Source of the DNA: Escherichia coli
Lineage (GTDB): Bacteria > Pseudomonadota > Gammaproteobacteria > Enterobacterales > Enterobacteriaceae
DNA length: 64,000 bases
Assembly (NCBI RefSeq): GCF_013315695.1
Contig: NZ_CP054353.1
Direction: 5' to 3' (one strand)
Shown: positions 5,861 through 40,100 of the stretch, piece after piece
Layout of the letters: each line of letters starts with the position of its first letter
Position numbering within the stretch: the stretch's first letter is position 1
Position numbers and translations under genes: made by a program
The notes under the pieces: generated by a model
The model's database searches: none
What the model was told of the DNA's origin: nothing
The model's input: only the letters and a program-made list of their open reading frames with translations

Positions 5861-7030
5861 TTACAGGCCATCAAGACCGCGAATCGGTTTAATGGTTGAC
5901 CAGGCCCGACAAGACGGACAATGCCAGTAGAGAGTGTATGCGGTAAAACCACATTTCTGGCAGCGATAACGAGGCTTACTACGCACCCTCTCGCCAACCA
6001 TGTCACGCAGCACCATCAGACTCTCTTTGGCACGCCCTTCTTCTGCTTCATTTAAGTGGTAATCCATTAACTTATGGAACACACGCATGGTCGGATGACG
6101 CTGAAGCTGGCGCGTAATATAGACCTGTGCGGCCTCACTACCGTCGCGCGCTTCGATGATATCCGCAAGCATCAATTCAGCATCGGCACCGGTGTTCTCT
6201 TCCACCGCGCGCTGCAGGAATTCTGCCCATTCGGCAGTTTTACCCAACTGCTGATAGCATGTTTGCAGCATTTCCAGCGTTTCGCTGACCAGTTCTCTGT
6301 CCTGGGATATCACGCGTTGCAGACTTTCGACGGCTTTGGCGTATTCTCCTTTCGCCATAAATACGCGTCCCATCATGATGGATACGCGGGCGCTGTTTTT
6401 ATCTGCCGCCGCACCTTTTTTTAACAAGGCCATGGCACGATCGAGATCGTCGCTGGCCATATGCTGCAGGGCTAACTCACAGTAGAAATGGGCAATTTCG
6501 ACGCGCTGTTTATCTTTACCCAGCTTCACCAGGCGTTCGGCAACATCAATTGCTTTCTGCCACTCGCTGGTAGCCTGGTAGATTTGTAGCAACTGTTGCA
6601 GCGCGCCAATGCGGAAGTCAGTTTCATCGGTCAGCTGATTGAACATGTCTTCCGCGCGGTCGTATAACCCGGCGGCCATGTAATCACGCCCCAATTGTTG
6701 AATCGCCAACAGACGCTGTTCATAGGTCAGCGAGGCGCTTTCCATTAGGGTCTGATGGATGCGAATAGCGCGATCAACTTCGCCACGCGAACGGAACAGG
6801 TTTCCGAGCGTAAGGTGGGCTTCAACGGTACCTGTATCCTCTTTAAGCATATCGAGAAACAGATCTACCGCTTTATCCTGTTGATTACTAAGCAGGAAGT
6901 TAACCCCCGCTACGTAATCACGCGACAAGCGGTTGGCTTCATCTTGCTTGTTTTGTTGCGCACTTCTGCGGCCCATATACCAGCCATAGGCAGCGGCTAC
7001 AGGCAAAAGCAGAAACAACAACTCCAGCAT
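5861..7030 (-). CDS. lapB: LPS assembly protein LapB (YciM), TPR plus rubredoxin-like C-terminus
   Basis: 389-aa ORF with TPR repeats and C-terminal CxxC...CxxC motif; adjacent to lapA. Confidence 0.9.
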   Translation of the reverse strand: MLELLFLLLPVAAAYGWYMGRRSAQQNKQDEANRLSRDYVAGVNFLLSNQQDKAVDLFLDMLKEDTGTVEAHLTLGNLFRSRGEVDRAIRIHQTLMESASLTYEQRLLAIQQLGRDYMAAGLYDRAEDMFNQLTDETDFRIGALQQLLQIYQATSEWQKAIDVAERLVKLGKDKQRVEIAHFYCELALQHMASDDLDRAMALLKKGAAADKNSARVSIMMGRVFMAKGEYAKAVESLQRVISQDRELVSETLEMLQTCYQQLGKTAEWAEFLQRAVEENTGADAELMLADIIEARDGSEAAQVYITRQLQRHPTMRVFHKLMDYHLNEAEEGRAKESLMVLRDMVGERVRSKPRYRCQKCGFTAYTLYWHCPSCRAWSTIKPIRGLDGL

Positions 7031-33998: not shown

Positions 33999-34083
33999 TT
34001 CACCGTTCATTATTAATATCAGCTGATAAAGATAATTGCATCTGCGGGCCGTATGGCTCGCAGTGATTTCACTGGAGAAAAAT

Positions 34084-34584
34084 ATGAATATGAAGACCAT
34101 TGAAGATGTATTTATTCACCTGCTTTCAGACACCTACAGTGCAGAAAAACAATTAACACGTGCACTGGCAAAACTCGCTAGAGCAACATCAAACGAAAAA
34201 TTAAGTCAGGCTTTTCATGCGCACCTCGAGGAAACACATGGACAGATTGAACGTATTGATCAAGTTGTGGAATCAGAATCGAATCTGAAAATTAAGCGCA
34301 TGAAATGTGTGGCAATGGAAGGTCTTATTGAAGAAGCTAATGAGGTCATCGAAAGTACCGAGAAAAACGAAGTGCGTGATGCCGCACTGATTGCCGCAGC
34401 ACAGAAAGTCGAGCATTATGAGATTGCCAGTTACGGGACATTAGCGACGCTGGCTGAACAATTAGGTTACCGTAAAGCAGCTAAGCTTCTGAAAGAAACT
34501 CTTGAAGAAGAAAAGGCCACCGACATCAAACTAACTGATCTGGCCCTTAATAACGTAAATAAGAAAGCCGAAAATAAAGCCTGA
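34084..34584 (+). CDS. yciF: DUF892/ferritin-like protein YciF
   Basis: 166-aa ORF MNMKTIEDVFIHLLSDTYSAEKQLTRALAKLARATS... Confidence 0.9.
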   Translation: MNMKTIEDVFIHLLSDTYSAEKQLTRALAKLARATSNEKLSQAFHAHLEETHGQIERIDQVVESESNLKIKRMKCVAMEGLIEEANEVIESTEKNEVRDAALIAAAQKVEHYEIASYGTLATLAEQLGYRKAAKLLKETLEEEKATDIKLTDLALNNVNKKAENKA

Positions 34585-34629
34585 AATATGAACTTTAACT
34601 TTTAGTCATTTTATAAAGAGGACATTTTC

Positions 34630-34921
34630 ATGAATCGTATTGAACATTATCATGACTGGTTACGTGACGCCCACGCAATGGAAAAGCAAGCCGAATCTAT
34701 GCTTTAATCCATGGCCAGCCGTATAGATAATTATCCTGAACTACGCGCTCGTATTGAACAACATCTTAGTGAAACCAAAAACCGATTGTTCAACTGGAAA
34801 CTATTCTTGATCGTAATGACATTTCACGTTCAGTCATTAAAGATTCCATGAGTAAAATGGCTGCGCTTGGGCAGTCAATCGGTGGTATATTTCCTTCTGA
34901 TGAAATAGTCAAAGGCTCTAT
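34630..34921 (+). pseudogene. yciE: yciE pseudogene: in-frame TAA at codon 26, 1-bp deletion frameshift, 3' end removed by IS1
   Basis: MNRIEHYHDWLRDAHAMEKQAESML* then YciE-like sequence continues in the same frame (SMASRIDNYPELRARIEQHLSETKN), then shifts frame (…SVIKDSMSKMAALGQSIGGIFPSDEIVKGS) until the IS1 end. Confidence 0.8.
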
Positions 34922-34976: not shown

Positions 34977-35252
34977 GTGGCTTCTGTTTCTATCAGCTGT
35001 CCCTCCTGTTCAGCTACTGACGGGGTGGTGCGTAACGGCAAAAGCACCGCCGGACATCAGCGCTATCTCTGCTCTCACTGCCGTAAAACATGGCAACTGC
35101 AGTTCACTTACACCGCTTCTCAACCCGGTACGCACCAGAAAATCATTGATATGGCCATGAATGGCGTTGGATGCCGGGCAACAGCCCGCATTATGGGCGT
35201 TGGCCTCAACACGATTTTACGTCACTTAAAAAACTCAGGCCGCAGTCGGTAA
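34977..35252 (+). CDS. insA: IS1 InsA
   Basis: Identical translation to copy 1. Confidence 0.95.
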
Positions 35253-35674
35253 CCTCGCGCATACAGCCGGGCAGTGACGTCATCGTCTGCGCGGAAATGG
35301 ACGAACAGTGGGGCTATGTCGGGGCTAAATCGCGCCAGCGCTGGCTGTTTTACGCGTATGACAGGCTCCGGAAGACGGTTGTTGCGCACGTATTCGGTGA
35401 ACGCACTATGGCGACGCTGGGGCGTCTTATGAGCCTGCTGTCACCCTTTGACGTGGTGATATGGATGACGGATGGCTGGCCGCTGTATGAATCCCGCCTG
35501 AAGGGAAAGCTGCACGTAATCAGCAAGCGATATACGCAGCGAATTGAGCGGCATAACCTGAATCTGAGGCAGCACCTGGCACGGCTGGGACGGAAGTCGC
35601 TGTCGTTCTCAAAATCGGTGGAGCTGCATGACAAAGTCATCGGGCATTATCTGAACATAAAACACTATCAATAA
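35171..35674 (+). CDS. insB: IS1 InsB
   Basis: Identical translation to copy 1. Confidence 0.9.
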
Positions 35675-35888: not shown

Positions 35889-36356
35889 TTATTTCAGGCA
35901 CTGAGTACGGATATATTCCTGCGCCCCTTCCAGTTGCTTCTGCATCGTCATCAGCCGCTCTCTGAGGGTGAAATAATCCCGTGTAACGGTGTCTGCCAGT
36001 TGGGGGCCGGTTGCATTATCCACGCGGGCGGTGCCGGTGGCTTCACGCACGGGACCTGGACAGGTGGCGTTGATACGCAGGCGCTTACGACCAGCGGCAA
36101 CGTCAGCGCGAAGAGTTTCATTTTCAGCTTTCGCATCAGCTAACTCCTTCGTGTATTTTGCATCGAGCGCAGCAACATCACGCTGACGCATCTGCATGTC
36201 AGTAATTGCCGCGTTCGCCAGCTTCAGTTCTCTGACATTTTTGTCGCGCTGGGCTTTGTAGGTAATGGCGTTATCACGGTAATGATTCAGCCCCAGACTA
36301 AGCGCACCACAGGCCACCAGCAGGGCAATGATGACCACGCACAGTACGCGGTTCAT
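35889..36356 (-). CDS. i-spanin Rz
   Basis: 155-aa ORF …[70 protein letters not shown]… closely resembles lambda Rz. Confidence 0.9.
35951..36136 (-). CDS. o-spanin Rz1 lipoprotein (embedded in Rz, +1 frame)
   Basis: 61-aa [25 protein letters not shown]…[32 protein letters not shown]; lipobox and Pro-rich, lambda Rz1-like. Confidence 0.85.
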
Positions 36357-36357
36357 T

Positions 36358-36456
36358 TCACCACCAGCGTATCTGACCGATGAAATAACCGGAGGCCATA
36401 ATCACAAACACCAGCCAGATAAGAATGAACTTCCAGGTGGATAATTTTTCAGCCAT
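36358..36456 (-). CDS. possible 32-aa single-TM peptide between endolysin and Rz
   Basis: [35 protein letters not shown] read from sequence; stop two bases before the Rz start codon; below ORF-track cutoff. Confidence 0.3.
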
Positions 36457-36654
36457 CACTCGAATCTCCCGAATCAGTTTGCTAAAATCAAACACACTTT
36501 CTCCTTTGACTTTTCCGGAGTCAGGAAACACAAAACCCCGCTTGGTGCCAACAAACGGGGTTTTTACTTTTATTCACTTACGTTTCGCCAGTTCGCAGGA
36601 TTTCGTGTTATCCGCCCGCGTGGCCATGCCTTATTTTTCAGCAAAATATTCTGC

Positions 36655-37188
36655 TTATCTGTCGATTCCCCAGCACGCCAGCGCGCTCTCCTGGTCACGA
36701 CGGGATACCTGACCATAACAGTTGTTTGAGCGGATACGGCAGTCTCTGCCACCGTCCTTAATCCACCAGCGAATCGCCTCACACGCTCCCCTGCGATCAC
36801 CTGCATTAATTCGTTTATAAAACGTCGACGGGAAACACTTACCGGGACCAATGTTGTACGGACAGAATGACGCGATCCCCGCTTTCTGGGGTTCACTCAA
36901 TGGCACTCTGATGTTTTTCTCCACCCATGCCAGCGCCTCATCACGCTCAATGGCGTTAACCCGGTCGCATTTTTCCTTCGACAACTTCATGCCCGGAACG
37001 ACAGGTTTGCCATCCACCAGGATGGCACCGCGGCAGATGGTCCAGATACCCGCACCATCACGGTATGCCGTGGTGTGGTTACCTTCCTTTTCATCCAGAA
37101 ACTGGTCGAGAATGTCAGGCGCAGGCGCACCAGCGGCAATCAGCGCCAGAACGGCAGCCGACAGGCCGTATCTGATTTTTGCGTTCAT
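36655..37188 (-). CDS. phage endolysin (GH24 lysozyme with N-terminal signal-anchor-release-like segment), RrrD-like
   Basis: 177-aa ORF MNAKIRYGLSAAVLALIAAGAPAPDILDQFLDEKEGNHTTAYRDGAGIWTICRG… closely resembles cryptic-prophage lysozyme RrrD. Confidence 0.9.
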   Translation of the reverse strand: MNAKIRYGLSAAVLALIAAGAPAPDILDQFLDEKEGNHTTAYRDGAGIWTICRGAILVDGKPVVPGMKLSKEKCDRVNAIERDEALAWVEKNIRVPLSEPQKAGIASFCPYNIGPGKCFPSTFYKRINAGDRRGACEAIRWWIKDGGRDCRIRSNNCYGQVSRRDQESALACWGIDR

Positions 37189-37293: not shown

Positions 37294-37566
37294 ATGGACA
37301 ATAACACCATTTCTCTACAGGAGTTGCTCGACAGCATTTCCAGGCTTCGGGAAGACGTGAATACCCTTACCGTCGCCTTCTCATATCTGGCATTCTCAAT
37401 TCCAAGGGAACAGATGCAATCAACGCTGGCATCAATCCAGTTTGAATCATGCAATCCCAAATGGTCTCAGGAACAACAAGACTCTTTCAGGCGGCTTGCT
37501 GTATTACTGGATGAAAAATATGCTGGTAAAATTACCATTTCGGCGGACTCTTCAGAGAACCCGTAA
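37294..37566 (+). CDS. hypothetical 90-aa protein, antisense-oriented inside lysis cassette
   Basis: ORF with strong SD (gaggatt, 6 nt before ATG); convergent with orf114, overlapping it by 35 nt. Confidence 0.45.
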   Translation: MDNNTISLQELLDSISRLREDVNTLTVAFSYLAFSIPREQMQSTLASIQFESCNPKWSQEQQDSFRRLAVLLDEKYAGKITISADSSENP

Positions 37567-37876
37567 TTATTCCCGGTAGTTTTCCTCTGTAGGTTATCAA
37601 CACATCCTGCGCCTCTAAAATTACGGGGCGCTTTTCCGGCGACTGCTCATCCCCTTCACATAACCCGGCAGCAACATCCAGGAAGACCTGTCTGATGCTC
37701 CTTCTGGCTGCTGCCTCATAAAACTCCAGCGCGGCACCTTCAACACGGTCCAGCGAGATGTCCAGGTCAAAAATTTCACCGTCAAAGCGTTTTTTGTCCC
37801 GTAACGCTAAAGTTACCGTAACTTTATTCTCAAAATTGCGGATCCCTTTCACAATCAGTTCATAGTTTTGAGTCAT
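37532..37876 (-). CDS. hypothetical 114-aa phage protein between holin and endolysin (position of ydfR-type genes)
   Basis: ORF immediately downstream of holin stop, co-directional with lysis genes. Confidence 0.55.
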   Translation of the reverse strand: MTQNYELIVKGIRNFENKVTVTLALRDKKRFDGEIFDLDISLDRVEGAALEFYEAAARRSIRQVFLDVAAGLCEGDEQSPEKRPVILEAQDVLITYRGKLPGIITGSLKSPPKW

Positions 37877-37880
37877 TGAA

Positions 37881-38096
37881 TTACTCTCCCCGTGCAGCCT
37901 TACGACGGTCCTCTCTGATTTTGAAATACAGGTTAGTCAGATATGTCAGCAGCCCAAACAGCAGACTCCCCAGCACGCCTATTGCCGCCCACTGAGACGG
38001 GGAAACCCTGTCCAGCAACTGCAGGAACCAGTAGCCCGTTCCCACCGCTGACGTGGTGTATGACACACCTGTTGTGATTTTTTCCATCTGGTACAT
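37881..38096 (-). CDS. phage 21-type pinholin S with dual-start motif
   Basis: [71 protein letters not shown] resembles S21 (MKSMDKISTG…); start set at dual-start Met within ORF 37881..38174. Confidence 0.85.
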
Positions 38097-38246
38097 ACCC
38101 CGTCTCCCGTTATCCGGAAGCTGACAACAATAAAAAAAGCCACCAGTTAAGTACTGATGGCTCTGATAACTCATGCAGGCATCTCAGACGACCCACTGAC
38201 ACTACCGGTGAGTTTAACGATACCTTCCATTTGGCTGGCTCACTTT

Positions 38247-40100
38247 TTATGATGATGCCGGTGCATTTATCTCCAGCACCAGACTTTCTATCTCAACGCC
38301 ATACGCTGCATTTTTGGTAATATCCGTCAGCGTCAGCGCATTCAGCCCCAGTGTCAGACTGTCTTTTATGACCTGGAATGCCGGGCCAGCCACTCCATTC
38401 AGTTTCGGAGTAACCGTGGCACTGCCGGCGGTGAACACCAGCTCCAGCGTCTGCCAGTCGTTACTGTAATTCCCGAACTCGCCCAACTTTGTGTTTCCTG
38501 CTTTCTTGTGATGCATCAGATTCAGTTTGCCGTCTGTGGTCTGGGTGAAGAACGACATCAGGAACGGGTTACCAGTCCCGGTCATCGCCACGACGTCAGG
38601 TAACGCTACATCGGTATACAGATAAATTCCCAGACCGAACTGGTTGTTGGTCAGTGCGCCTGACAGTCGAAACTTACAGCTCAGTCTGCCACCCCGTGTC
38701 AGCAGGGAGACTGCGTCATCCACCGGGCGCGTCAGGGACCAGGCTTTATTGCTCTGCTTGGTGATCTTAAATACACCATCTGACAACTGAATTCCGCCAT
38801 TCTTAATGCTCCAGCCCTGCGCAGCAGCGTCTCCGGCTGTCGGCAACAGGGAGATTGTGCGTATGGATGCATCTTCAGACGGCCCCGATGGCGTGTCGCC
38901 GCCGGGCGAGGGTTTGATTTCCGGTGCCTTACCACTAATGAAGGCTAAGGTGCGACCGGCTACGTTCAGAATAGCAGTTGCCATACGATCGGGAATAATG
39001 CCACGACGCGCCCATGAGCTGAAATGCGTCGGGCGATTTGATGATACCCAGTTTTTGTTCGTTCGGGATGCCGAACCGTAATAACCAGACCCGGCAATAT
39101 CAGGATCTTCTGACGGGTTGTTTGTCGGTGTATTAACTCCGCTACCATCGGTCATAAAGGGAACAAAATAAATCTGCTGGGATTCTTTACCTTTATATGC
39201 ACCATATACCACTTCATATTGCGTACCGTGTTCTTGTTTCCACGCGTATGTCGTGTCGCCACAAATCCAGGGGACTGATGCCGGACTTCCACCGTGACAC
39301 TGCGCCGCCAGCCCGGCAAGGTCAGCACGGAACTGCTGTACCATTGCAAGAAATGCTGCTGGCTGCTGGGCGTAACTGGCATTCGTCATATCGAATTCCC
39401 CCTGCATCCAGCATATCGCCAGCAAAACGTTTTTCGGGTTTTTCTGCAATGCTGCCTTCGTGCGGAAAAGCAGATCCTGATATAACGGCTTACCCACTCC
39501 CCAGCGAGCCGAATCCTGACTGGCTCCCGTGGACTCGCTGAATGTCCCCTCCGTGCCCTGGGTGAATGCCGAACCACCACGACAGCATGGTACCAGCAGG
39601 ATCCCCGCATTATTAGGGATATACGGAAGCAGTTTTTTGGCAATATGTAAGCCCTGTCCGACACAGCCGTACTGCCCTTTGCTCAGGTCAGCCCGGGGAT
39701 GGTTAATCGTACTCATATCCTGAACATCATGCAGACAATGGTCAGCAGGAATGATGTCGTTAAATACGCATACTTCACCACCGGGAGTCACTGTGTTACG
39801 ACGGGCCAGTTGCTTAATGCGCGGATGGGGCGCATCGTATGAATCCGGAAGCGGAAGCCCTTCACCGTAAGCCATGGCATTGGATTGCCCGGCCAGTACG
39901 ATGACGTAGTACCACTCCGGCTCAGTTGCACCACTGACGACCACATCACCTTCTGCTGCAATCGCCTGCATCAGGGTATAAGGGGTTATGGCCACCGGAC
40001 TACCAAACGGCTGCCAGCCCTCCTTCAGTTTTTGTGTCAGTCGTTTCGCAAGGTCTGACGGCGATGCCGCCCTGACCACGTCATAGTGTTTAAATGCCAT
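38247..40100 (-). CDS. prophage sialate O-acetylesterase NanS-p (N-terminal DUF1737-like, SASA/SGNH esterase domain)
   Basis: 617-aa ORF; N-terminus MAFKHYDVVRAASPSDLAKRL…; VIVLAGQSNAMAYGEG esterase motif; located between tRNAs and holin as in Stx-type phages. Confidence 0.8.
   Translation of the reverse strand: MAFKHYDVVRAASPSDLAKRLTQKLKEGWQPFGSPVAITPYTLMQAIAAEGDVVVSGATEPEWYYVIVLAGQSNAMAYGEGLPLPDSYDAPHPRIKQLARRNTVTPGGEVCVFNDIIPADHCLHDVQDMSTINHPRADLSKGQYGCVGQGLHIAKKLLPYIPNNAGILLVPCCRGGSAFTQGTEGTFSESTGASQDSARWGVGKPLYQDLLFRTKAALQKNPKNVLLAICWMQGEFDMTNASYAQQPAAFLAMVQQFRADLAGLAAQCHGGSPASVPWICGDTTYAWKQEHGTQYEVVYGAYKGKESQQIYFVPFMTDGSGVNTPTNNPSEDPDIAGSGYYGSASRTNKNWVSSNRPTHFSSWARRGIIPDRMATAILNVAGRTLAFISGKAPEIKPSPGGDTPSGPSEDASIRTISLLPTAGDAAAQGWSIKNGGIQLSDGVFKITKQSNKAWSLTRPVDDAVSLLTRGGRLSCKFRLSGALTNNQFGLGIYLYTDVALPDVVAMTGTGNPFLMSFFTQTTDGKLNLMHHKKAGNTKLGEFGNYSNDWQTLELVFTAGSATVTPKLNGVAGPAFQVIKDSLTLGLNALTLTDITKNAAYGVEIESLVLEINAPASS

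What the first reader, a model, noticed from the sequence alone, without database searches (positions are those of the whole stretch)
36358..36456. Possible 32-aa transmembrane peptide between endolysin and Rz
A short ORF encoding a single hydrophobic helix ([32 protein letters not shown]) sits between the endolysin and Rz, with its stop two bases before the Rz start codon. Small membrane peptides in lysis cassettes can act as antiholins or release factors, but it is below usual gene-calling thresholds.
Basis: seen in the sequence. Interest (0 to 1): 0.25.

Follow-up and report, generated by a model that had tools for sequence, protein, structure and literature searches.

The report
Mobile small membrane-peptide gene cassette
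The short ORF between the prophage endolysin and Rz genes is a real, conserved gene for a 45-residue membrane-anchored peptide that travels between phages as a small, tightly repressed cassette, probably with its own antisense RNA, so it is unlikely to be a dedicated lysis gene.

Summary
The ORF exists as described, on the minus strand at 36358-36456. The conserved gene is longer: 45 aa, 36358-36495, with a GTG start 5 nt after an AAGGAG Shine-Dalgarno. It is RefSeq WP_000459345.1 ("hypothetical") and PHROG phrog_6632 (unknown function).

The frame is under purifying selection. An E. coli variant shows 5 synonymous and 0 non-synonymous changes. Against Salmonella phage SPN3UB, pS is 0.71 and pN 0.19. 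Homologs occur in Escherichia, Salmonella, Pseudomonas and Burkholderiaceae.

The gene is not tied to lysis. It sits at endolysin|spanin junctions of three unrelated cassette types, two with non-SAR endolysins. It also sits inside tail or baseplate modules and in toxin-antitoxin or defence hotspots.

What moves is a roughly 230-nt cassette: a bidirectional terminator hairpin, a stem that sequesters the Shine-Dalgarno, a GTG or TTG start, and the ORF. Synonymous sites in codons 3-5 are invariant across 15 lineages. On the opposite strand they spell an extended -10 promoter (TGcTAnnAT). This predicts a roughly 75-nt antisense RNA covering the ribosome-binding site and ending at that hairpin.

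Best reading, inferred and not shown: a type-I-toxin-like, antisense-controlled membrane peptide. The antiholin or releasin idea is not excluded but is poorly supported.

The parts
36358..36495 (-). 45-aa small ORF (GTG start): tail-anchored membrane peptide, phrog_6632 / WP_000459345.1
   Evidence: PGAP calls this extent in some genomes. GTG/TTG start with SD in all lineages. dN/dS well below 1.
36358..36456 (-).
   Evidence: Met14 is ATG in 14/15 lineages. It is preceded at 9 nt by the conserved GAG of codon 10 (15/15), giving GGAG in 10/15. Translation from this start is not shown.
36501..36506 (-). Shine-Dalgarno AAGGAG, 5 nt upstream of the GTG
   Evidence: read directly from the sequence. 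Equivalent SDs occur in Salmonella, Pseudomonas and Burkholderia copies.
36498..36528 (-). Small stem-loop pairing the U-rich tract (UUUCCUGACU) with the SD region (AGUCAAAGGAGAAA)
   Evidence: SD region predicted paired with P>=0.6 in 14/16 lineages, with different stem sequences; outer UUUC/GAGA pairs kept in 13-14 of 18.
36532..36564 (.). GC-rich hairpin flanked by an A-run and a U-run: bidirectional intrinsic-terminator-like element that travels with the ORF
   Evidence: 13-pair stem; 92.9% of cells paired, 6 pairs with compensatory changes; equal stability on both strands (-25.3 vs -25.0 kcal/mol).
36460..36488 (+). Predicted antisense promoter inside codons 3-12 of the ORF: -35 TCGAAT (36460-65), 17-nt spacer, TG (36480-81), -10 TAAAAT (36483-88)
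   Evidence: TGcTAnnAT at a fixed register in 13/15 lineages. The three third-codon positions that map to -10 A2, -10 A5 and the extended -10 G are conserved: invariant at two of them (15/15 each) and 13/15 at the third (codon 4, A2).
36495..36572 (+). Predicted ~75-nt cis-antisense RNA: 5' end complementary to the start codon and SD, 3' end at the hairpin plus U-run
   Evidence: folds to -23.2 kcal/mol, z -3.2. Prediction only; no expression data.
36655..37188 (-). Endolysin R (phage lysozyme; N-terminal Ala/Gly-rich SAR-like segment)
35889..36356 (-). Rz i-spanin, with Rz1 o-spanin embedded at 35951..36136
37881..38174 (-). S21-type class II holin (maximal ORF; PGAP calls a 71-aa form in relatives)

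Best explanation
The locus is one copy of a mobile, self-contained small-gene cassette of about 230 nt (window 36358-36580, minus strand). It encodes a 45-aa tail-anchored inner-membrane peptide. The peptide has a cytoplasmic amphipathic helix (residues 4-17), a kink, a transmembrane helix (about 20-43) and an RWW tail.

Expression looks held down at several levels. (1) A strong terminator hairpin sits immediately upstream, so in this prophage the gene can only be reached by Q-antiterminated late transcription through R. (2) A stem pairs the U-tract with the Shine-Dalgarno. (3) The start codon is GTG or TTG. (4) By inference, a roughly 75-nt cis-antisense RNA is launched from an extended -10 promoter embedded in codons 3-6. 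It would be complementary to the start codon and SD and would end at the same hairpin, which is bidirectional.

This is the architecture of a type I toxin-antitoxin module (for example symE/SymR) or of phage antisense control (P22 sar/ant). The peptide is therefore most likely a membrane-active, potentially toxic product made only when late transcription overwhelms these brakes. It is not a component specific to the S21/R/Rz lysis machinery.

Shown: coding status, extent, family, mobility, hairpins, and synonymous-site constraint. Inferred: the antisense RNA, toxicity and biological role.
For: Coding status and extent. PGAP and PHROG call the 45-aa form. An E. coli variant has 5 synonymous and 0 non-synonymous differences. 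pS/pN is 0.71/0.19 against SPN3UB, 0.59/0.27 against SEN34 and 0.81/0.34 against Pseudomonas. In the TMD, codon position 3 varies most (0.67, against 0.37 at position 2).

Family. There are 58 representative clusters at E<=1e-3. All 34 diverse members match phrog_6632.

Mobility. The gene lies at the R|Rz junction in E. coli and SPN3UB. It lies between a soluble endolysin and Rz in L137, and between a GH19-like endolysin and a different spanin in L134. It lies in baseplate and tail K|I or J junctions. It lies among ParE, RelB, HicAB and PrlF/YhaV modules, or next to an integrase and SIR2/WYL. Tandem copies exist. The cassette is absent from the homologous K-12 Qin junction.

Cassette structure. 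The hairpin is present in 15/16 lineages with covariation. The SD region is predicted paired in 14/16. GTG or TTG starts predominate.

Antisense promoter. Third codon positions are invariant at codons 3 and 5 and 13/15 at codon 4. Ser5 is always AGC. Neighbouring third positions are free. These map onto TGcTAnnAT in 13/15 lineages. Sense-strand mRNA pairing does not explain this: codons 3-5 are mostly unpaired. The one lineage lacking the -10 motif (L096) also lacks the antisense U-run. The conserved A-run upstream of the hairpin has no role for a sense-strand terminator but supplies the antisense U-tail.
Against: There are no expression data. No Rfam family matches. No Hfq-CRAC sRNA peak could be assigned to this cassette in the EHEC list, though cassette copies were not mapped in that strain.

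The -35 element is weak, 3/6. The contrast in third-position conservation between the N-terminal region and the TMD is only modestly significant (Fisher p 0.046), and the lineages are not independent. Part of the nucleotide constraint, GAG at codon 10 and Met14, fits an internal ribosome-binding site rather than a promoter.

In this window the cassette has no sense promoter of its own, unlike classical type I TA loci. Toxicity is untested. The gene recurs at endolysin|spanin junctions, with its stop one base before the Rz ATG, so a lysis-linked role remains plausible.
Confidence: 0.4

Rival explanations
1. Dedicated lysis accessory protein. The peptide, possibly as two isoforms of 45 and 32 aa from dual starts, acts in the inner membrane on the pinholin, endolysin or i-spanin. 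It would work like an antiholin, a pinholin cofactor such as LambdaSo Lcc6, or a functional analogue of a releasin.
For: It sits between the endolysin and spanin genes in three unrelated cassette types, co-oriented and abutting the spanin start. An internal SD+ATG at Met14 is conserved, recalling holin/antiholin dual starts. Other prophages carry different small TM ORFs in the same slot. Lcc6 shows that a small TM lysis cofactor can be encoded far from the cassette.
Against: About half of the variants are in tail modules or TA/defence hotspots. The gene occurs with both SAR and non-SAR endolysins and with different holins and spanins, so no constant phage partner exists. There is no holin or DUF2730 similarity. 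Its topology is opposite to that of releasin and Lcc6. Homologous cassettes such as K-12 Qin function-wise need no such gene.
Confidence: 0.22
2. Lysogen-benefit moron. The small inner-membrane protein would be expressed from the prophage to exclude superinfecting phage DNA (as with HK97 gp15) or to modulate a host membrane protein.
For: It behaves like a moron. Presence or absence varies between otherwise homologous neighbours. GC content is lower than in the flanks, 0.41-0.45 against 0.52-0.59. It inserts at classic moron sites in tail operons. It lies in defence/TA hotspots. A Burkholderia copy has a candidate own promoter with a palindromic operator. The conserved cytoplasmic helix suggests a conserved host target.
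Against: In the window and in all late-operon copies, no sense promoter fits between the terminator and the SD. The terminator would also block read-through in a lysogen. SD sequestration and non-ATG starts argue for minimal expression.
Confidence: 0.15
3. There is no antisense RNA. The nucleotide-level constraint in the first 55 nt reflects only translation signals (an A/U-rich initiation region and an internal SD for a second start). The upstream hairpin is simply a partial sense-strand terminator or mRNA-stability element that sets low late expression of a membrane peptide of unknown role.
For: GAG at codon 10 (15/15) and Met14 fit an internal RBS. Several hairpins carry G-U pairs that favour the sense strand, including the window's. 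The simple promoter scan did not flag the site.
Against: The invariant third positions coincide exactly with the critical extended -10 bases, while adjacent third positions vary. Codons 3-5 are not consistently paired in the sense RNA. The conserved A-run upstream of the hairpin is unexplained by a sense-only terminator.
Confidence: 0.18
4. Spurious ORF: a non-coding spacer that happens to be open.
For: It is short, usually unannotated, and has no Pfam or NCBIfam match.
Against: Purifying selection, codon periodicity, and conserved SD and start are seen across gamma- and beta-proteobacterial phages.
Confidence: 0.02

Closest known systems
Type I toxin-antitoxin modules with an antisense promoter inside the toxin ORF (symE/SymR; also hok/Sok, ibs/Sib). 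Comparison drawn from established knowledge.
   Same: A small ORF (<60 aa here) with a hydrophobic helix. A short cis-antisense RNA is predicted to cover the SD and start codon. The SD is sequestered. Copies are multiple or tandem, and some co-locate with other TA modules.
   Different: The antisense RNA and toxicity are only predicted. The late-operon copies have no sense promoter of their own and rely on phage late transcription. The TMD is C-terminal, behind a conserved 20-residue cytoplasmic helix. No Rfam or Pfam family matches.
Phage antisense RNAs: P22 sar (against the ant RBS) and lambda OOP (against cII). From established knowledge.
   Same: Short RNAs of about 70-80 nt, transcribed opposite to a phage gene and ending at an intrinsic terminator. 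They pair with the RBS or coding region.
   Different: Those RNAs control regulatory proteins at fixed positions in the genome. Here the RNA would belong to a mobile cassette that encodes a membrane peptide.
Mu gp25 releasin (DUF2730), PMC9239132
   Same: A small membrane protein encoded near an endolysin.
   Different: gp25 is 99 aa with an N-terminal TMD, N-out/C-in topology and a 73-aa anionic cytoplasmic domain, and it occurs only in Mu-like phages. There is no sequence relation (hhalign probability 1%). The family also occurs with non-SAR endolysins.
LambdaSo Lcc6 (bioRxiv 10.1101/2024.01.23.576932)
   Same: A small single-TMD phage protein in a pinholin/SAR-endolysin phage. It shows that lysis cofactors need not lie in the cassette.
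   Different: Overproduction was harmless.
Morons such as HK97 gp15, a superinfection-exclusion membrane protein in the tail operon. From established knowledge.
   Same: A small membrane-protein gene inserted between late genes. It is present or absent between related phages and has a lower GC content.
   Different: Classical morons carry their own promoter upstream and a terminator downstream. Here the terminator is upstream and no sense promoter is evident in late-operon copies.

Membership tests
phrog_6632 / RefSeq WP_000459345.1 (uncharacterised phage protein family) | Full-length match to the family profile | tested here: met
   E 1.4e-29, profile positions 1-45 of 45; all 34 diverse members match; identical 45-aa CDS annotated in RefSeq.
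Type I toxin-antitoxin | Small (<60 aa) hydrophobic or transmembrane toxin ORF | tested here: met
   45 aa. TMD at residues about 22-42. Helix-kink-helix model, pLDDT 82.
Type I toxin-antitoxin | Antisense RNA antitoxin that base-pairs with the toxin mRNA | tested here: inconclusive
   A conserved extended -10 motif lies on the antisense strand in 13/15 lineages, with synonymous-site invariance, and the terminator is bidirectional. There is no transcript evidence and no Rfam match.
Type I toxin-antitoxin | Toxin has its own promoter, and the peptide is toxic when overproduced | not testable with these tools
   No sense promoter in the window copy. A candidate promoter with operator exists in a Burkholderia copy. 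Toxicity requires an experiment.
Releasin (Mu gp25, DUF2730) | DUF2730 domain over the whole protein | tested here: not met
   No Pfam hit. hhalign probability against gp25 is 1%.
Releasin (Mu gp25, DUF2730) | N-terminal TMD, N-out/C-in topology, long anionic cytoplasmic domain | tested here: not met
   The TMD is C-terminal. The N-terminal 22 residues carry 5 positive and 3 negative charges. gp25 features come.
Releasin (Mu gp25, DUF2730) | Genetic pairing with an endolysin that needs release (SAR type) | tested here: not met
   Family members follow soluble endolysins, and many lie far from any endolysin.
Holin/antiholin | Membership of a holin family, or TMD similarity to the cognate holin | tested here: not met
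   No holin Pfam or PHROG match for any of the 34 members. The cassette's holin is the separate S21-type gene.
Holin/antiholin | Dual translational starts giving two isoforms | tested here: inconclusive
   A conserved internal GGAG/GAG plus Met14 lies 13 codons downstream of the GTG. Use of both starts is untested.
Moron (Hendrix/Juhala sense) | Extra gene present or absent between otherwise homologous late genes, with deviant composition | tested here: met
   Homology breaks at about 36499-36526. K-12 Qin has R overlapping Rz. Alternative inserts occur elsewhere. GC is 0.41-0.45 against 0.52-0.59.
Moron (Hendrix/Juhala sense) | Own promoter upstream and terminator downstream | tested here: not met
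   The terminator is upstream of the ORF. No sense promoter fits in the 35 nt between hairpin and SD.

The most novel reading that the evidence does not exclude
A promoter-less, type-I-toxin-like cassette has colonised phage late operons. It uses antiterminated late transcription as its only sense promoter and a constitutive embedded antisense RNA as its brake. The membrane peptide, perhaps as 45-aa and 32-aa isoforms, would then appear only at the end of infection. There it would depolarise the inner membrane and so tune holin triggering or SAR-endolysin release, or kill the cell abortively if late genes are mis-expressed. This would be a new, widespread and mostly unannotated class of lysis-timing or addiction module, present in about 16% of complete E. 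coli genomes.
Probability: 0.15. Interest if true: 0.7.

Novelty: new member of a known kind. Interest (0 to 1): 0.5.

Why it matters
The gene is common: 896 of 5426 complete E. coli genomes, including Stx1, Stx2a and Stx2c phages and H-19B. It is usually left unannotated and has no assigned function.

If the cassette is an antisense-controlled membrane peptide, it adds a new family to the type I toxin-like modules. It would also give a concrete example of a protein motif whose conservation is partly imposed by a promoter on the other strand.

Because it sits in the late operon of Shiga-toxin phages, any effect on membrane potential or lysis timing would bear on toxin and phage release. The same slot in other prophages holds further uncharacterised small membrane ORFs, so the R|Rz junction looks like a general docking site for such genes.

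Tried and rejected
- **Family libraries.** Pfam and NCBIfam scans of the peptide and of 34 homologs gave nothing meaningful.
- **Rfam.** Scans of the window region and of ten homologous loci gave only sub-threshold rimP-leader hits on the antisense strand (24.7 and 36 bits against a gathering score of 47). I treat these as hairpin look-alikes.
- **Literature.** Searches by accession, by peptide string and by phrases about the R-Rz interval found nothing. Supplements of the EHEC small-gene ribosome-profiling paper did not contain the peptide.
- **EHEC Hfq-CRAC sRNA list.** No peak could be tied to this cassette. In Sakai Sp15 the R|Rz junction carries an antirepressor and a different 48-aa TM ORF instead. 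EcOnc22 proved to be a different element in the tail I|J gap.
- **Pas sRNAs.** These lie between the esterase and the holin, or in structural operons.
- **Mu proteins.** Homology to gp25 or gp20 was rejected.
- **Type III TA-like repeats.** None were found upstream of the hairpin.
- **Sense-mRNA structure.** This was tested as the cause of the codon 3-5 constraint and rejected.
- **An earlier antisense promoter candidate.** A site at 36373-36402 was rejected because it is not conserved in homologs.
- **Tool limits.** The search for related loci failed with the single 45-aa protein and with the Pseudomonas-type alignment.

Full report
**1. The observation**

The window carries a lambdoid late region on the minus strand, in this order:
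- a SASA/NanS-type esterase (38247..40100);
- an S21-type class II holin (37881..38174, PF04971);
- a YdfR/DUF1327 protein (37532..37876);
- a phage lysozyme (36655..37188, PF00959);
- a 300-nt gap;
- Rz (35889..36356, PF03245) with embedded Rz1 (35951..36136, PF06085).

A near-identical prophage in strain AR_0013 shows the same order downstream of the antiterminator Q and three tRNA genes.

The reported ORF is present in the gap at 36358..36456 on the minus strand, with exactly the reported translation. Its TGA is followed by one base and then the Rz ATG.

**2. It is a real gene, but 45 aa rather than 32**

The open frame extends upstream. A GTG at 36495-36493 lies 5 nt after a perfect AAGGAG. 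NCBI's pipeline annotates exactly this 45-aa product (WP_000459345.1, "hypothetical protein") in some genomes. CP-1639 carries it as "putative bacteriophage protein". The peptide matches PHROG phrog_6632 (unknown function) end to end at E 1e-29. It has no Pfam or NCBIfam family.

Homologs keep the N-terminal extension. Salmonella phages SPN3UB and SEN34 and Pseudomonas phages YMC11/02/R656 and D14H all begin at the same position with an SD plus GTG or TTG. They share xDFSKLIRExRxM.

Nei-Gojobori counts against the window frame show purifying selection:

| Comparison | Result |
|---|---|
| An E. coli variant | 5 synonymous, 0 non-synonymous differences |
| SPN3UB | pS 0.71, pN 0.19 |
| SEN34 | pS 0.59, pN 0.27 |
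| Pseudomonas | pS 0.81, pN 0.34 |

Among about 110 E. coli and viral loci, four of the five nucleotide haplotypes encode the identical protein. In the hydrophobic half, codon position 3 varies most and position 2 least (0.67 against 0.37).

A profile search of 1.84 billion representatives found 58 clusters at E<=1e-3. Members come from Escherichia, Salmonella, Pseudomonas, Burkholderiaceae, Mycetohabitans and metagenomes. All are 40-55 aa and all are unnamed.

The 223-nt cassette is present at >=80% coverage in 896 of 5426 complete E. coli genomes and is mostly unannotated.

**3. The protein**

Hydropathy places one TMD at about residues 22-42. The N-terminal 22 residues carry 5 basic and 3 acidic residues and form an amphipathic segment with hydrophobic moment 0.49. 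AlphaFold with the family alignment gives helix 4-17, a break at 18-19, and helix 20-43, with mean pLDDT 82.

By the positive-inside rule this is a tail-anchored peptide, N-in and C-out, with only RWW on the periplasmic side. That topology is an inference.

**4. It is not tied to lysis genes**

Contexts of distinct family members are as follows.

- *R21-type lysozyme | Rz.* E. coli, H-19B, Stx1a/2a/2c phages and SPN3UB.
- *Two other, unrelated lysis cassettes.* In L137 the order is holin/antiholin phrog_126, then a soluble 138-aa endolysin, then the sORF, then Rz. In L134 it is a GH19-like endolysin, then the sORF, then a different spanin (phrog_1026).
- *Tail modules.* The gene lies between a baseplate protein and the wedge subunits in SEN34-like phages, which account for about 25 loci. 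It also lies after the baseplate hub, after the major tail protein, after tail-tip J, and at the K|I junction in Pseudomonas phages and in an enterobacterial prophage.
- *Accessory hotspots.* It lies among ParE/RelB, HicAB and BrnA modules upstream of the terminase in Burkholderia prophages. It lies next to PrlF/YhaV. It lies beside an integrase and SIR2/WYL genes.

K-12 Qin, with homologous R and Rz, has no gap at all. Other E. coli prophages fill the same R|Rz slot with different small TM ORFs (phrog_1115, 4493, 3246, 4906). Several of these also end in IRWW.

GC content falls to 0.41-0.45 over the cassette, against 0.52-0.59 in R and Rz. This is moron-like behaviour.

The recurrence at endolysin|spanin junctions keeps a lysis link possible. 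However, the partners differ: SAR and non-SAR endolysins, different holins and different spanins. Any target is therefore more likely a host factor or the membrane itself.

**5. What moves is a cassette with a conserved regulatory leader**

In 15 of 16 lineages a GC-rich hairpin lies about 35-40 nt upstream of the start codon. The window's hairpin is at 36532-36564 with a 13-pair stem.

On an 18-sequence alignment, 92.9% of its cells are paired and six pairs show compensatory changes. The covariation score exceeds all 500 shuffles and all slid controls.

The hairpin is flanked by a conserved A-run upstream (TAAAAG[C/T][G/A]AAA) and a U-run downstream. It folds equally well on both strands, with means of -25.3 and -25.0 kcal/mol. 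It therefore looks like a bidirectional intrinsic terminator.

Immediately downstream, the U-rich tract pairs with the SD region. In the window, UUUCCUGACU pairs with AGUCAAAGGAGAAA at 36498-36528. Other lineages use different stems: ACCUUG/CAAGG, CGUUA/UAACG, CUUCUG/CAGAAG and CCAUG/CAUGG. The SD is predicted paired with P>=0.6 in 14 of 16 lineages.

Start codons are GTG or TTG in almost all enterobacterial and Pseudomonas copies. No sigma-70-like sense promoter fits between hairpin and SD. In late-operon copies the ORF can therefore only be transcribed by read-through of the hairpin. In this prophage that means Q-modified polymerase; this step is an inference from established lambdoid biology.

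In a Burkholderia prophage the cassette has a roughly 430-nt leader with a TTTACA-17-TATCAT promoter inside a perfect 15-nt palindrome. The whole leader is duplicated with a 704-nt period in front of a second, different small TM ORF that also ends in IRWW.

**6. A nucleic-acid signal is superimposed on codons 3-12**

I compared 15 lineages that share less than 85% identity.

- *Constrained third positions:* invariant at codon 3 (T; GAT/AAT/TAT), codon 5 (Ser is always AGC), codon 10 (GAG) and codon 17. Nearly invariant at codon 4 (T in 13/15) and codon 12 (A in 12/15; the rare CGA in 10/15).
- *Free third positions:* codons 2 and 6-9, and throughout the TMD. For example, Phe23 is TTT in 8 lineages and TTC in 7.
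- *Statistic:* 5 of 19 degenerate N-terminal columns are >=13/15 conserved at position 3, against 0 of 19 in the TMD (Fisher p 0.046).

Read on the opposite strand, codons 3-6 spell TGcTAnnAT in 13 of 15 lineages: TAAAAT, TAATAT, TAAGAT or TAGAAT. The constrained third positions in codons 3-5 are exactly the -10 A2 (13/15), the -10 A5 (15/15) and the G of the extended -10 TG (15/15). A weak -35 (TCGAAT or TCGCAA, 3/6) lies 17 nt upstream in codons 11-12.

In the window, on the plus strand, the elements are: -35 at 36460-65, TG at 36480-81, and -10 at 36483-88.

A transcript starting about 7 nt downstream, near 36495, would begin with the complement of the start codon and SD. It would contain the complement of the small stem and would end at the hairpin and its U-run. 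Its length would be about 75 nt. That sequence folds to -23.2 kcal/mol, z = -3.2.

This model explains three otherwise odd facts:
- why a terminator sits upstream of the ORF and travels with it;
- why an A-run is conserved on its 5' side;
- why the N-terminal peptide motif is conserved even at synonymous sites.

Sense-strand mRNA pairing does not explain the constraint, because codons 3-5 are mostly unpaired and have no consistent partner. The one lineage without the -10 motif (L096) also has only a sense-oriented hairpin with no antisense U-run.

Not everything fits the promoter. GAG at codon 10, together with the usually G-ending codon 9, forms GGAG 9 nt before the nearly invariant Met14 ATG.

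**7. Mechanism and confidence**

*Shown:* a conserved coding gene, its extent and family, a predicted tail-anchored topology, a mobile cassette with a conserved hairpin and SD-sequestering stem, non-ATG starts, and synonymous-site constraint that matches an antisense extended -10 element.

*Inferred:* a cis-antisense RNA that blocks the ribosome-binding site, expression only when late transcription is massive, and a membrane-active and possibly toxic peptide.

This is the logic of type I toxin-antitoxin loci such as symE/SymR, and of phage antisense controls such as P22 sar/ant or lambda OOP (established knowledge). I put it at about 0.4.

The rivals are:
- a genuine lysis cofactor or antiholin-like protein (0.22), helped by the precedent of LambdaSo Lcc6;
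- a lysogen-benefit moron, such as a superinfection-exclusion protein (0.15);
- a reading in which there is no antisense RNA and the constraints are translational only (0.18);
- a spurious ORF, which is effectively excluded.

**8. Comparison with known systems**

Mu releasin gp25 is a 99-aa DUF2730 protein with an N-terminal TMD, N-out/C-in topology and an anionic cytoplasmic domain. The family shares none of these features and no sequence similarity.

No holin family matches. No Rfam family matches either strand of the leader. No paper in the searchable library mentions the accession or the peptide. The EHEC Hfq-CRAC list gave no assignable peak, but cassette copies were not located in that strain and type I antitoxins are often Hfq-independent.

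**9. Verdict**

The lysis-regulator interpretation is only weakly supported. The locus is a catalogued but uncharacterised small-protein family embedded in a previously undescribed, mobile regulatory cassette. It is best classed as a new member of the small membrane-peptide / type-I-toxin-like kind, pending detection of the predicted RNA and a toxicity or lysis phenotype.

Noticed in passing
window 34977-35674 (+), with 34036-34851 to its left: ORFs reading as IS1 InsA/InsB (recognised from my own knowledge of the sequences) lie about 200 nt downstream of Rz. They are followed by YciE/YciF-like ORFs. In the near-identical prophage of strain AR_0013, the region after Rz continues with YnfO-like, IS3, group II intron and terminase genes instead. 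The prophage in this window therefore appears truncated or rearranged just after the lysis cassette.
   Followed up: partly
window 37294-37566 (+): A 90-aa ORF (phrog_2411, E 1e-58, unknown function) lies on the strand opposite to the lysis genes, between YdfR and the lysozyme. RefSeq annotates it as hypothetical in relatives. It is an inversely oriented insert inside the lysis cassette.
   Followed up: no
window 38136-38164 (-), between the esterase (38247..40100) and the holin: A terminator-like hairpin with a long U-run lies in the esterase-holin gap. A 2026 preprint places the prophage sRNAs PasA/PasC in this position. Identity could not be checked because no sequences were available.
   Followed up: no
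L009:1703-2031, L011:1839-2187, L012:1766-1879, L184:1749-1895 (the R|Rz junction in other E. coli prophages): The same slot holds other small TM ORFs (phrog_1115, 4493, 3246, 4906; all unknown function). They are sometimes three or four in a row, and several end in IRWW immediately before the Rz ATG. In O157:H7 the hairpin and leader are retained but are followed by only an 8-codon remnant.
   Followed up: partly
L093:3590-4885 (Burkholderia prophage): A leader of about 430 nt is duplicated with a 704-nt period. It comprises a perfect 15-nt palindrome overlapping a TTTACA-17-TATCAT promoter, several hairpins and the cassette hairpin. The two copies stand in front of two different small TM ORFs that both end in IRWW. 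Further fragments lie at 6362-6589.
   Followed up: partly
L183:1190-1432 (Sakai Sp15, gap between tail genes I and J): The published Hfq-bound sRNA EcOnc22 (~85 nt by Northern, plus strand) maps to this gap, antisense to the tail operon. The gap contains hairpins and a 39-aa non-TM ORF and is unrelated to phrog_6632. It shows that antisense sRNAs embedded in late operons do exist. A coordinate offset between genome versions is possible.
   Followed up: partly
L144:4899-4983 (-): An Rfam sRNA-Xcc1 (RF02221) match above the gathering score (69.7 bits) lies about 1.8 kb downstream of a tail-module copy of the cassette.
   Followed up: no
L130-L132 (IMG/VR contigs): Two family copies lie in tandem after the baseplate hub genes. 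One has an apparently degenerate N-terminus and no recognisable start codon at the usual position.
   Followed up: no
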